A program made the translations under genes and the position numbers. Shown piece by piece: positions 51,690 through 52,480 of a stretch of DNA of 64,000 nucleotides. Source of the stretch: the human T2T-CHM13v2.0 reference genome, Homo sapiens; NCBI GenBank assembly GCA_009914755.4, contig CP086569.2:15936001-16000000 (forward strand), read 5' to 3'. The notes under the pieces were generated by a model. The model ran no database searches, was not told where the DNA came from, and worked only from the letters and a program-made list of their open reading frames with translations. Within the stretch, counting starts at the first letter, position 1. Every line of letters starts with the position of its first letter.

Positions 51690-51950
51690 TGGCCCCAGTG
51701 TCTATTGTTTCCATGTAATTTAGCTCCTACTTATTAGCAAGAACATGCCATGTTTAGTTTTCTGTTCTTGCATAAATTCCTTAGGATCGTGGCCTCCAGC
51801 TGCATCCATGTTATTGGAAAGGACTATATTCTCTTCTTTTTATGGCTGCATAGTATTCCACAGTGTATATGTACCACATTTCTTTACCCAGTCTGCCATT
51901 TATGAGAATCTATGTTGATTCCATGTGTTTGTTATTGTGTGCGTGTATAT
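51690..51950 (-). mobile_element. Old L1 (L1P/L1M-type) ORF2-3' region fragment
   Basis: ccccagtgtctattgtttccatgtaatttagctcctacttattagcaagaacatgccatgtttagttttctgttcttgcataaattccttaggatcgtggcctccagctgcatccatgttattggaaaggactatattctcttctttttatggctgcatagtattccacagtgtatatgtaccacatttctttacccagtctgccatttatgagaatctatgttgattccatgtgtttgttattgtg is homologous to the same L1 region seen at 9780-10030 in this window. Confidence 0.8.
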
Positions 51951-52300
51951 ATATATAAATATTTGAGCAATATACATATATATGTTGTGACTGTATATAG
52001 ATATATGTATGAGTTACATATATATCATATAAAAATGTATGGGCTCACATACACATATCATACATATATGTTACACATATACATATATGTATGAGCTCAC
52101 AATATATCATACATATGTATCATGTACATATATACATGTGTACATATGTGTGTACATATATGACATATGTATGATATAGATGTAACTCATACATGTATCT
52201 ATATACAACAGCAACATATATATAGCTTATACATACACACACACAATAACACAGGCATGGAATCAACATAGATTCTCATAAATGGCAGACAGGATAAAAA
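51890..52300. repeat. AT-rich near-palindrome (~410 bp): ~150-bp inverted arms derived from the old L1 segment plus (TATG/TACA)-rich sequence, around a partly symmetric ~135-bp centre near 52090
   Basis: Left arm 51891-52020: cagtctgccatttatgagaatctatgttgattccatgtgtttgttattgtgtgcgtgtatatatatataaatatttgagcaatatacatatatatgttgtgactgtatatagatatatgtatgagttacata. The reverse complement of 52170-52300 reads ...cctgtctgccatttatgagaatctatgttgattccatgcctgtgttattgtgtgtgtgtatgtataagctatatatatgttgctgttgtatatagatacatgtatgagttacatctatat. Arms align at roughly 85-90% with one ~15-bp indel. Confidence 0.8.
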
Positions 52301-52480
52301 TGTAGCACATGTATATGTATACACATGTATACATATGTGTACATGTGTATGTATACATACAGATACATATGTGTACATATGCATGATATATATGTATCTC
52401 ATAGGGCATATAATATTTTGTATATACACACGCATATATATGTACACACACACACACACACACACACACTTCTGTTAGTG
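52300..52480. repeat. Low-complexity (TGTATACA/TATG)n-rich sequence ending in (CA)n
   Basis: Direct read: gtatacacatgtatacatatgtgtacatgtgtatgtatacatacagatacatatgtgtacatatgcatg...tgtacacacacacacacacacacacac. Confidence 0.9.

What the first reader, a model, noticed from the sequence alone, without database searches (positions are those of the whole stretch)
51890..52340. AT-rich near-palindrome (~410 bp) made from an inverted duplication of an old L1 segment: potential cruciform or fragile structure
The sequence at 51891-52020 and the reverse complement of 52170-52300 align over about 150 bp at roughly 85-90% identity (for example gtctgccatttatgagaatctatgttgattccatg is perfect in both arms). 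The arms continue outward as L1-like sequence on both sides. The ~135-bp centre is itself partly symmetric and very A+T-rich. Long AT-rich palindromes (PATRRs) form hairpins or cruciforms, are hard to replicate or clone, and mediate recurrent translocations and deletions in human. This locus has the same sequence attributes on a smaller scale and is flanked by hypervariable (TA)n/(CA)n tracts.
Basis: seen in the sequence. Interest (0 to 1): 0.5.

Follow-up and report, generated by a model that had tools for sequence, protein, structure and literature searches.

The report
Old decayed L1-derived inverted duplication
A roughly 450-base stretch of primate DNA holds a real but old and imperfect inverted duplication of a LINE-1 fragment set in TA/TG/CA-rich simple repeats; it lacks the near-perfect, spacer-free, more than 90% A+T symmetry of the palindromes known to break human chromosomes, so it is most likely an ordinary neutral relic.

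Summary
The inverted repeat is real. 51866-52033 pairs with the reverse complement of 52166-52313: 132 matches, 15 mismatches, 22 gap columns, 89.8% identity, including an exact 35-mer. The local score is 177 against 32±5 in shuffles. Both arms are L1-derived and share derived changes absent from eight other L1 copies in the window. Only the left arm continues collinearly into about 170 more bases of L1. So an already aged L1/satellite segment was copied once in inverted orientation, left arm as parent, roughly 25-55 Myr ago (K2P 0.11).

The PATRR analogy fails on the features tested:
- A+T is 72%, not above 90%.
- The arms are about 90% identical with a 22-nt indel, not nearly perfect.
- The 132-nt centre is no more symmetric than shuffles (81 of 500 reach the observed score).
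- Converting duplex to hairpin costs about 130 kcal/mol per strand. Published PATRR11 alleles cost 8-20, and a perfect palindrome built from the left arm costs 5.

A single strand would still fold well (z = -14). Four other inverted Alu or L1 pairs of similar quality lie in the same 64 kb. No comparative sequence could be retrieved, so polymorphism is untested.

Verdict: a real feature, ordinary, of low interest.

The parts
51866..52033 (+). Left arm and inferred parent copy. The outer part is L1-derived (antisense of L1). The inner part is a TA/TG-rich derivative.
   Evidence: Gapped alignment to rc(52166-52313) gives 89.8% identity. The arm is collinear with L1 on its outer side.
52166..52313 (-). 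Right arm, the inferred inverted copy of the left arm.
   Evidence: L1 profile homology covers only 52313-52242 on the minus strand (E = 5.3e-10) and ends abruptly at profile position 182.
52034..52165 (.). Spacer or centre, 132 nt. Low-complexity TA/CA/TG sequence holding two further plus-orientation copies of a unit of about 30 nt (52036, 52083) and a (TACATATG)n tract.
   Evidence: Its symmetry is not above shuffles (81/500). A+T is 72%. Tandem Repeats Finder rows at 52048-52085 and 52110-52160.
51891..51925 (+). Exact 35-nt core shared with rc(52256-52290).
   Evidence: Exact-match scan.
52256..52290 (-). Partner of the exact 35-nt core.
51954..51975 (+). About 22 nt present only in the left arm (indel between the arms). 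It shifts the symmetry axis from 52090.5 to 52099.5.
   Evidence: Alignments. Axes.
51698..51992 (-). Old L1 fragment from the 3' part of the element, L1 sense on the minus strand. Its last roughly 330 nt toward the L1 3' end are missing.
   Evidence: nhmmer with a profile of 7 in-window L1 copies: aligned 51719-51992, envelope 51698-52015, E = 5.6e-49, profile positions 33-292. blastn hits to 9 other in-window copies.
51529..51674 (.). Left flanking compound microsatellites: (TG)8, G12 (51544-51555), (GTATGT)n, (AT)12, (AC)14.
   Evidence: Tandem Repeats Finder; sequence read.
52307..52469 (.). Right flanking TG/TA satellite (34-nt period, 52307-52397) and (AC)13 (52444-52469).
   Evidence: Tandem Repeats Finder.
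51507..51528 (+). Outer inverted 22-mer, 20/22 complementary to 52395-52416 with an exact 15-mer. It lies on a different axis from the main arms.
   Evidence: (pair I24). Only 8 of 400 shuffles give any inverted 15-mer that is not low-complexity.
52395..52416 (-). Partner of the outer inverted 22-mer.

Best explanation
This is a decayed quasi-palindrome produced by one post-insertional inverted duplication.

An old L1 3'-region fragment (L1 on the minus strand, about 51700-52000) had already drifted far from its family. Its naturally TG/TA-rich stretch had already turned into TA/TG satellite. About 150-170 nt spanning that L1/satellite boundary (51866-52033) was then copied in reverse complement and laid down about 130 nt downstream (52166-52313).

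The most likely process is a replication template switch, or the related hairpin-primed repair synthesis, in this alternating purine/pyrimidine, hairpin-prone sequence. In the four-point model of Löytynoja and Goldman this is the '3-2-1-4' geometry. Since then the arms have gained 15 substitutions and a 22-nt indel (K2P 0.11, roughly 25-55 Myr under a neutral clock).

Today the locus has no function. In double-stranded DNA, full cruciform extrusion is energetically prohibitive. A long imperfect hairpin could form only when the whole 450 nt or so is single-stranded, for example under replication stress or long resection. The expected variability is ordinary microsatellite length variation, not palindrome-centred breakage.

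Shown: the inverted repeat, its L1 ancestry, the single origin of the arms, the polarity (left parent, right copy), and the energetics. Inferred: the copying mechanism, the date, and the present inertness.
For: - The inverted repeat is real and far above chance. Its 10% divergence and indels rule out an assembly or cloning fold-back artefact, which would be identical.
- L1 ancestry of both arms: blastn to 9 other in-window L1 copies and an nhmmer L1 profile.
- Single origin after ageing. In the L1 part, 16 positions are shared by both arms against the in-window L1 majority, with 4 left-only and 5 right-only. The arms are 88% identical to each other but only 73-75% to the L1 majority and 78-80% to the closest copy. 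Both arms share the same TG/TA-rich replacement straight after the L1 motif ATTGTG. Both also share an inner 58 nt (91%) that no other L1 copy has.
- Polarity. The left arm runs on collinearly into L1 profile positions 33-182. The right arm's homology stops at position 182.
- Geometry and context fit template switching. The 3-2-1-4 event type creates an inverted repeat with an un-inverted spacer (PMC5453318). Template-switch loci are enriched in AT-rich sequence (PMC7954356). The spacer here carries only plus-orientation units.
- Low structural activity. Two hairpins (-124.3 and -128.6) against the duplex (-514.2) cost +261 kcal/mol, with 49% of the energy recovered. A perfect palindrome made from the left arm costs +10.7 (97% recovered). 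Random segments recover 14%. PATRR11 alleles cost 8-20 kcal/mol per strand on the same metric (PMC3197554).
- The centre is not symmetric.
- Identity and spacer penalties are documented in PMC10164571 and PMC1851657.
- Four comparable inverted TE pairs lie in the same 64 kb.
Against: - No outgroup or second haplotype was available: four collection scans and three look-ups by ORF product found nothing. The ancestral state, the switch points and the date are therefore not observed.
- A copied fragment of 150-170 nt is much longer than the short events on which the template-switch model was built.
- Junction microhomologies cannot be recognised after 10% decay in low-complexity sequence.
- An extra inverted 22-mer on another axis (51507-51528 / 52395-52416) and a bracketing direct (TA)n(CA)n repeat suggest more than one event.
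- The single-strand fold is strong (z = -14.4). Divergent, spaced inverted repeats do become unstable in long single-stranded DNA (PMC10164571), so some instability cannot be excluded.
- The energy figures use ViennaRNA DNA parameters, whereas the published PATRR values came from mfold.
- Arm-to-arm gene conversion would make the age an underestimate.
Confidence: 0.7

Rival explanations
1. The locus is a PATRR-like fragile palindrome. It still extrudes a cruciform or forms hairpins often enough to be hard to replicate, length-polymorphic around its centre, and a source of deletions or translocations.
For: - Total size of 448 nt is in the PATRR range.
- The single-strand DNA fold is strong: -124.8 kcal/mol, z = -14.4.
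- The sequence is AT-richer than its surroundings and sits among microsatellites.
- Divergent, spaced inverted repeats can drive rearrangements when single-stranded (PMC10164571).
Against: - It fails three stated PATRR features (PMC4940405): A+T is 72% rather than above 90%, the arms are 89.8% identical with a 22-nt indel, and there is a 132-nt centre without significant symmetry.
- Gds/2 - Gstruc is about 130 kcal/mol, against 8-20 for PATRR11 alleles (PMC3197554).
- A short central spacer alone greatly reduces PATRR22 extrusion and instability (PMC1851657).
- In yeast, 86% identity gives 58-fold fewer gross rearrangements, and widening the spacer from 12 to 100 bp gives 300-fold less recombination (PMC10164571).
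- The eukaryotic Okazaki initiation zone of 100-200 nt (PMC7999016) is shorter than the roughly 450 nt that must be single-stranded.
- The arms have survived long enough to accumulate 10% divergence.
Confidence: 0.08
2. The inverted arrangement was born with the L1 insertion, by twin priming. This would be a 5'-inverted L1 whose inverted segment overlaps (duplicates) the body. The similarity of the arms then dates from insertion and was kept up by arm-to-arm gene conversion.
For: - The topology is the right kind: antisense L1, a junction, then sense L1, with the inverted piece on the 5' side of the body. This follows the twin-priming description in PMC2912911 and the orientations found.
- Twin priming is reported as the commonest source of small inversions in human genomes (abstract of bioRxiv 10.1101/2021.12.20.472354).
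Against: - The arms are much closer to each other (88-90%) than to any L1 copy or to the in-window majority (73-80%).
- They share 16 derived positions, a TG/TA-rich replacement and a non-L1-like inner 58 nt.
- Without concerted evolution, arms born at insertion should differ from each other by about twice their distance from the source.
- The whole inverted segment would have to be duplicated.
- No poly(A) tail or target-site duplication is recognisable, and the L1 body lacks its last roughly 330 nt.
- Arms of 150 nt are short for sustained gene conversion (inference).
Confidence: 0.06
3. Two independent insertions of related L1 elements landed in opposite orientation, like the Alu/Alu and L1/L1 inverted pairs elsewhere in the window.
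For: Such pairs are common here. Four others have 79-84% identity and spacers of 235-550 nt.
Against: - Shared derived substitutions.
- The same TG/TA replacement at the same L1 position in both arms.
- A shared inner part found in no other L1 copy.
- Arm identity of 90% exceeds the identity of either arm to any other copy, which is at most 80%.
Confidence: 0.01
4. The apparent palindrome is a by-product of self-complementary low-complexity sequence (CATATATG-type repeats), not a duplication.
For: - The inner region and flanks are 84-91% alternating purine/pyrimidine.
- They give many short inverted matches on many different axes.
- The symmetry of the centre is at chance level.
Against: - The outer half of each arm is complex L1 sequence with an exact 35-mer.
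- The score of 177 compares with a maximum of 78 in shuffles that keep local composition.
- Matches across the arms fall on two consistent axes, 52090.5 and 52099.5.
Confidence: 0.01
5. The locus is transcribed and the long hairpin is processed into small RNAs, as a repeat-derived miRNA or endo-siRNA precursor.
For: - Strong hairpin potential.
- Sub-threshold Rfam hits to repeat-derived miRNA families mir-297, mir-466 and mir-3149.
- Template switching is known to create new miRNA hairpins (PMC10710096).
Against: - No Rfam family reaches its gathering score anywhere in the window.
- The best local hit scores 53.6 bits against a gathering score of 90. It falls on the flanking microsatellites, on both strands, which is typical of a composition effect.
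- There is no evidence of transcription, and no conservation data.
Confidence: 0.02

Closest known systems
Palindromic AT-rich repeats (PATRR11, PATRR22, PATRR17, PATRR8)
   Same: Non-coding inverted repeat of several hundred bases, richer in A+T than its surroundings, with relatively G+C-richer outer ends. It folds into a long hairpin in silico.
   Different: - A+T is 72% rather than above 90%.
- Arms are about 90% identical with a 22-nt indel, not nearly perfect.
- The centre is 132 nt and asymmetric, where PATRRs have no spacer.
- The duplex-to-hairpin cost is about 130 kcal/mol per strand, against 8-20.
- No link to any breakpoint is known.
Inverted transposable-element pairs (Alu-IR and L1-IR quasi-palindromes)
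   Same: Arms of a few hundred bases, 80-90% identity and a spacer of 100 nt or more. Such pairs are expected to be stable in normal double-stranded DNA metabolism but able to anneal in long single-stranded DNA (PMC10164571). Four examples lie in the same window.
   Different: Here the two arms descend from one inserted copy by later duplication, not from two insertions. The arms are shorter (150-170 nt) and the spacer is the smallest in the window.
Inverted repeats created by template-switch mutations (four-point model, event type 3-2-1-4)
   Same: A nearby segment is copied in reverse complement, creating a new inverted repeat with an un-inverted spacer, in an AT-rich context (PMC5453318, PMC7954356).
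   Different: The copied fragment of about 150-170 nt is far longer than the short events that model was built on. The event is old and its switch points are no longer readable. No ancestral sequence is available to prove it.
L1 5' inversion by twin priming
   Same: Antisense and sense L1 segments abut, with the inverted piece on the 5' side of the L1 body.
   Different: - The arms share post-insertion changes.
- The full inverted piece is duplicated.
- There is no recognisable poly(A) or target-site duplication.
- The arms mirror each other about a centre, instead of covering adjacent L1 intervals.

Membership tests
PATRR (palindromic AT-rich repeat) | Several hundred base pairs long | tested here: met
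   51866-52313 is 448 nt. PATRRs span about 190-600 bp (PMC1851657).
PATRR (palindromic AT-rich repeat) | More than 90% A+T (PMC4940405) | tested here: not met
   A+T is 71.7% overall, with arms at 73.8% and 68.9% and the centre at 72.0%.
PATRR (palindromic AT-rich repeat) | Nearly perfect palindrome | tested here: not met
   132 matches, 15 mismatches and 22 gap columns: 89.8% over aligned bases, 78% over all columns.
PATRR (palindromic AT-rich repeat) | No spacer; symmetric centre | tested here: not met
   The 132-nt centre has symmetry no better than shuffles (81/500). Several competing axes are present.
PATRR (palindromic AT-rich repeat) | Low free-energy cost of the duplex-to-hairpin transition (8-20 kcal/mol for PATRR11 alleles, PMC3197554) | tested here: not met
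   Gds/2 - Gstruc is 132.8 kcal/mol (top strand) and 128.5 (bottom strand). The control perfect palindrome gives 5.3. The parameter set differs from the paper's.
PATRR (palindromic AT-rich repeat) | Lies at the centre of recurrent or non-recurrent translocation breakpoints; polymorphic by central deletions | not testable with these tools
   No human population or breakpoint data are reachable. Scans of the public collections found no copy of the locus.
L1 (LINE-1) fragment | Sequence homology to L1 copies, collinear over the element | tested here: met
   Left arm: nhmmer E = 5.6e-49, profile positions 33-292. Right arm: E = 5.3e-10, profile positions 182-256. blastn to 9 in-window copies. No curated L1 consensus was available, so the subfamily is not assigned.
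L1 5' inversion by twin priming | Inverted and direct segments date from the insertion, so they share no post-insertion changes; element flanked by poly(A) and a target-site duplication | tested here: not met
   16 shared derived positions against 9 private ones, and a shared TG/TA replacement. No poly(A) or target-site duplication is visible, and the 3' 330 nt of the L1 are absent. Concerted evolution cannot be formally excluded.
Inverted repeat created by a template-switch mutation | Derived allele explained by one reverse-complement copy of adjacent sequence, relative to an ancestral allele | not testable with these tools
   No outgroup sequence. The geometry (parent left, un-inverted spacer, copy right) and the AT-rich context are compatible (PMC5453318, PMC7954356).
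Rfam miRNA families mir-297 / mir-466 / mir-3149 | Score at or above the family's gathering threshold | tested here: not met
   The best hit scores 53.6 bits against a gathering score of 90. Hits fall on both strands of the microsatellites. Nothing in the window reaches gathering.

The most novel reading that the evidence does not exclude
Despite its decay, the locus might still be a structure-driven unstable site. Under replication stress or long resection its arms could anneal in single-stranded DNA. That would produce recurrent centre-anchored deletions, inversions of the 132-nt spacer or fold-back rearrangements visible in long-read population or cancer genomes. It would then be a weak, L1-derived cousin of the PATRRs, and its history would show how such palindromes are born by template switching inside microsatellites.
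Probability: 0.07. Interest if true: 0.5.

Novelty: new member of a known kind. Interest (0 to 1): 0.15.

Why it matters
It matters little by itself. The locus is a clean example of how an inverted repeat can arise by secondary duplication inside an ageing L1/microsatellite region, not by two insertions. It also shows why a convincing hairpin fold on paper does not make a PATRR: A+T content, arm identity and central symmetry all fall short. If long-read data did show centre-anchored rearrangements here, it would extend the sequence range considered dangerous. The available determinants argue against that.

Tried and rejected
- **Comparative sequence.** I looked up three ORF products overlapping or flanking the locus in the public assembly index and found none. 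I scanned metagenome contigs and genome contigs with a 24-mer from the arm core and a 24-mer from the unique right flank and got zero hits in all four scans. Dating by outgroups and any test of polymorphism were therefore impossible.
- **Rfam.** Nothing reaches gathering score in the window. The permissive scan gave about 100 sub-threshold hits to repeat-derived miRNA families on both strands of the microsatellites. I rejected these as composition effects.
- **Centre as a continuation of the palindrome.** Rejected, because its symmetry is at shuffle level and competing axes occur at 52076, 52085.5, 52116 and 52140.5.
- **A larger ancestral palindrome running out to the 22-mers at 51507 and 52395.** Rejected as a simple model. 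The axis differs by about 130 nt and the flanking (TG)n/(CA)n tracts are not collinear in inverted orientation.
- **L1 3' end to the left of the fragment.** No L1 homology was found in 50600-51160 or 51483-51700.
- **The exact 35-mer as a sign of recent gene conversion.** Rejected. At 90% identity over 147 positions, a run of 35 or more is expected about 0.3-0.4 times (own arithmetic).
- **L1 subfamily.** It was not assigned because no curated consensus library was available.

Full report
**What is there**

The window is primate-like. An Alu with an A-rich tail lies at about 51183-51482, and at least nine L1 copies cover the same part of the element.

In the flagged interval, the repeat finder reports two inverted pairs. 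They are 51883-51953 / 52228-52298 (71 nt, 90%) and 51976-52029 / 52170-52223 (54 nt, 89%). A gapped local alignment joins them: 51866-52033 pairs with the reverse complement of 52166-52313. That alignment has 132 matches, 15 mismatches and 22 gap columns, which is 89.8% over aligned bases. The left arm carries about 22 extra bases at 51954-51975, which moves the symmetry axis from 52090.5 to 52099.5.

The local score of 177 far exceeds dinucleotide shuffles (31.8±4.6, max 47). It also exceeds shuffles that keep local composition in 40-nt blocks (47.8±7.9, max 78). As single-stranded DNA, 51860-52320 folds at -124.8 kcal/mol against -57.0±4.7 for shuffles, z = -14.4.

**What had to be corrected**

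- The 132-nt centre (52034-52165) is not significantly symmetric. 81 of 500 shuffles reach its inverted score, and its direct self-similarity is just as high. Its short palindromic matches lie on several different axes.
- A+T is 72% in the centre and 71.7% over the whole structure, against 62.7% for the window.
- L1-like sequence continues outward only on the left. On the right, a TG/TA satellite of 34-nt period starts at about 52307.
- The (TG)8, (AT)12, (AC)14 and (AC)13 tracts are present.

**Origin**

A profile built from seven other L1 copies in the window matches the left side at 51719-51992 (envelope 51698-52015, E = 5.6e-49, profile positions 33-292). It matches the right arm on the minus strand at 52313-52242 (E = 5.3e-10, profile positions 182-256). 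Both arms are therefore L1-derived, with the L1 sense strand pointing away from the centre on each side.

In the L1 part, the arms agree with each other against the in-window L1 majority at 16 positions. They differ privately at only 4 (left) and 5 (right). They are 88% identical to each other, 73-75% to the majority and 78-80% to the closest copy. Some of the 16 are subfamily differences. By eye, however, at least 8-10 are found in no other copy, including the two older-looking copies at 9935 and 53210.

Both arms also carry the same TG/TA-rich replacement immediately after the L1 motif ATTGTG. Both share an inner 58 nt at 91% that no other L1 copy has. This excludes two independent insertions. 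It also argues against a twin-priming origin at the time of insertion, unless the arms then evolved in concert.

The left arm is collinear with about 170 more bases of L1, whereas the right arm's homology ends abruptly. So the left is the parent and the right is the copy (inference). The 10% divergence and the indels exclude an assembly or cloning fold-back artefact.

The arm distance is K2P 0.111 (10 transitions, 5 transversions). At 2.2e-9 to 1.0e-9 substitutions per site per year, that gives 25-55 Myr. This is an inference that assumes neutrality and no gene conversion.

**Mechanism**

The arrangement is parent segment, un-inverted spacer, then reverse-complement copy. This is the outcome of the '3-2-1-4' event of the four-point template-switch model, which creates new inverted repeats (PMC5453318). 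Such events are enriched in AT-rich sequence (PMC7954356).

The sequence here is 84-91% alternating purine/pyrimidine, against 46% for the window. It is full of short self-complementary motifs, which makes it a plausible setting for fork stalling and strand switching. Hairpin-primed repair synthesis after a break would leave the same product, and I cannot separate the two.

The 150-170-nt copied segment is much longer than the short events on which that model was built. The junctions are unreadable after decay, and no outgroup was obtainable. The mechanism therefore remains an inference.

**Does it behave like a PATRR?**

PATRRs are described as several hundred bp long, more than 90% A+T, and nearly perfect palindromes without a spacer (PMC4940405). 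Length and central symmetry determine their cruciform extrusion, and a short central spacer greatly reduces both extrusion and instability (PMC1851657). The locus meets only the length criterion.

I applied the published metric Gds/2 - Gstruc:

| Sequence | Cost per strand (kcal/mol) | Source |
|---|---|---|
| This locus, top strand | 132.8 | |
| This locus, bottom strand | 128.5 | |
| All listed PATRR11 alleles, including asymmetric ones | 8-20 | PMC3197554 |
| Perfect palindrome built from the left arm (control, same software) | 5.3 | |

The control shows that the two scales are comparable despite different parameter sets.

The two hairpins recover 49% of the duplex energy. The ideal palindrome recovers 97%, and random 448-nt segments of the window recover 14±2%.

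In yeast, lowering Alu-IR identity to 94%, 86% and 75% cuts gross rearrangements about 15-, 58- and 1087-fold. Widening the spacer from 12 to 20 bp cuts recombination about 40-fold, and from 12 to 100 bp about 300-fold (PMC10164571). The eukaryotic Okazaki initiation zone of 100-200 nt limits hairpin formation by spaced repeats (PMC7999016).

The same paper shows that divergent and widely spaced inverted repeats do become rearrangement-prone in long single-stranded DNA. A residual risk under replication stress or extensive resection cannot be excluded.

**Context**

The same 64 kb contains four other inverted pairs made by independent TE insertions:

| Pair | Type | Arm length | Identity | Spacer |
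|---|---|---|---|---|
| 40724-41209 / 41446-41959 | L1 3' ends, tail to tail | 486 / 514 nt | 82.6% | 236 nt |
| 28329-28610 / 28858-29145 | Alu | 282 / 288 nt | 84% | 247 nt |
| 49853-50058 / 50294-50492 | Alu | 206 / 199 nt | 81% | 235 nt |
| 61992-62272 / 62821-63092 | Alu | 281 / 272 nt | 79% | 548 nt |

The flagged locus has the best arm identity and the shortest spacer of the five, but it belongs to a common class.

**Other checks**

- No Rfam family reaches its gathering score anywhere in the window.
- A permissive scan of 51400-52700 gives only sub-threshold hits, at most 53.6 bits against a gathering score of 90. They are to repeat-derived miRNA families (mir-297, mir-466, mir-3149) on both strands of the microsatellites, which is a composition effect.
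- Attempts to find the locus in other genomes all failed.

**Unresolved**

A 22-mer at 51507-51528 is 20/22 complementary to 52395-52416, with an exact 15-mer. Only 8 of 400 shuffles give any inverted 15-mer that is not low-complexity. Its axis (51961.5) differs from that of the main arms.

It shares a TATGAG core with a unit of about 30 nt. That unit is present in plus orientation at 52001, 52036 and 52083, and in minus orientation at 52166-52198 and 52383-52416. A direct (TA)n(CA)n repeat followed by a CT-rich stretch brackets the block (51626-51683 and 52421-52478). The region may therefore have seen more than one copying event.

**Verdict**

The inverted duplication of an old L1 segment is real. 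The PATRR-like fragility reading is not supported by any sequence determinant that could be tested, and population instability remains untested. This is an ordinary member of a known class and of low interest.

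Noticed in passing
window 40724-41209 and 41446-41959: Two L1 3' ends lie tail to tail. The arms are 486 and 514 nt, 82.6% identical, with a 236-nt spacer. These arms are longer than those of the flagged locus.
   Followed up: partly
window 28329-28610/28858-29145; 49853-50058/50294-50492; 61992-62272/62821-63092; 54576-54631/55052-55107: Inverted Alu pairs with 79-84% identity and spacers of 235-550 nt. 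Inverted TE pairs of this quality occur about once per 13 kb in this window.
   Followed up: partly
window 51507-51528 and 52395-52416: An outer inverted 22-mer (20/22, exact 15-mer TATATGCCCTATGAG) lies on a different axis from the main palindrome. It is unlikely by chance (8 of 400 shuffles). It shares a TATGAG-containing unit of about 30 nt with 52001, 52036, 52083 (plus orientation) and 52166-52198, 52383-52416 (minus orientation).
   Followed up: partly
window 51626-51683 and 52421-52478: A direct repeat of (TA)n(CA)13-14 followed by CTCTCTGCTA / CTTCTGTTA (88% over 50 nt) brackets the whole L1/palindrome block. It could be a real duplication or only microsatellite composition (family D1).
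   Followed up: no
window 51529-51555: (TG)8 runs directly into an uninterrupted G12 homopolymer (51544-51555). The compound tract is likely to be error-prone in sequencing and length-variable.
   Followed up: no
window 51520-51680, 51940-52240, 52300-52470: These stretches are 81-91% alternating purine/pyrimidine, against 46% for the window. Z-DNA-type transitions would therefore compete with any cruciform under negative supercoiling (the competition idea is from PMC3834812, title and abstract only).
   Followed up: no
window 51588-51674 and 52308-52467: The flanking TG/TA/CA microsatellites give many sub-threshold Rfam hits, on both strands, to repeat-derived miRNA families (mir-297 at 53.6 bits against a gathering score of 90, plus mir-466, mir-3149 and mir-1277). 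I judge this a composition effect.
   Followed up: yes
window 51183-51482: An Alu in plus orientation with an A-rich tail sits next to the microsatellite block, where the missing 3' end of the L1 fragment would be expected. It is only 71-75% identical to the other Alus in the window.
   Followed up: no
window 52855-53700: A second, separate old L1 on the minus strand starts with its 3' terminus at about 52860. It covers the same L1 interval as the left arm (53120-53299 matches 51758-51939 at 73.5%).
   Followed up: partly
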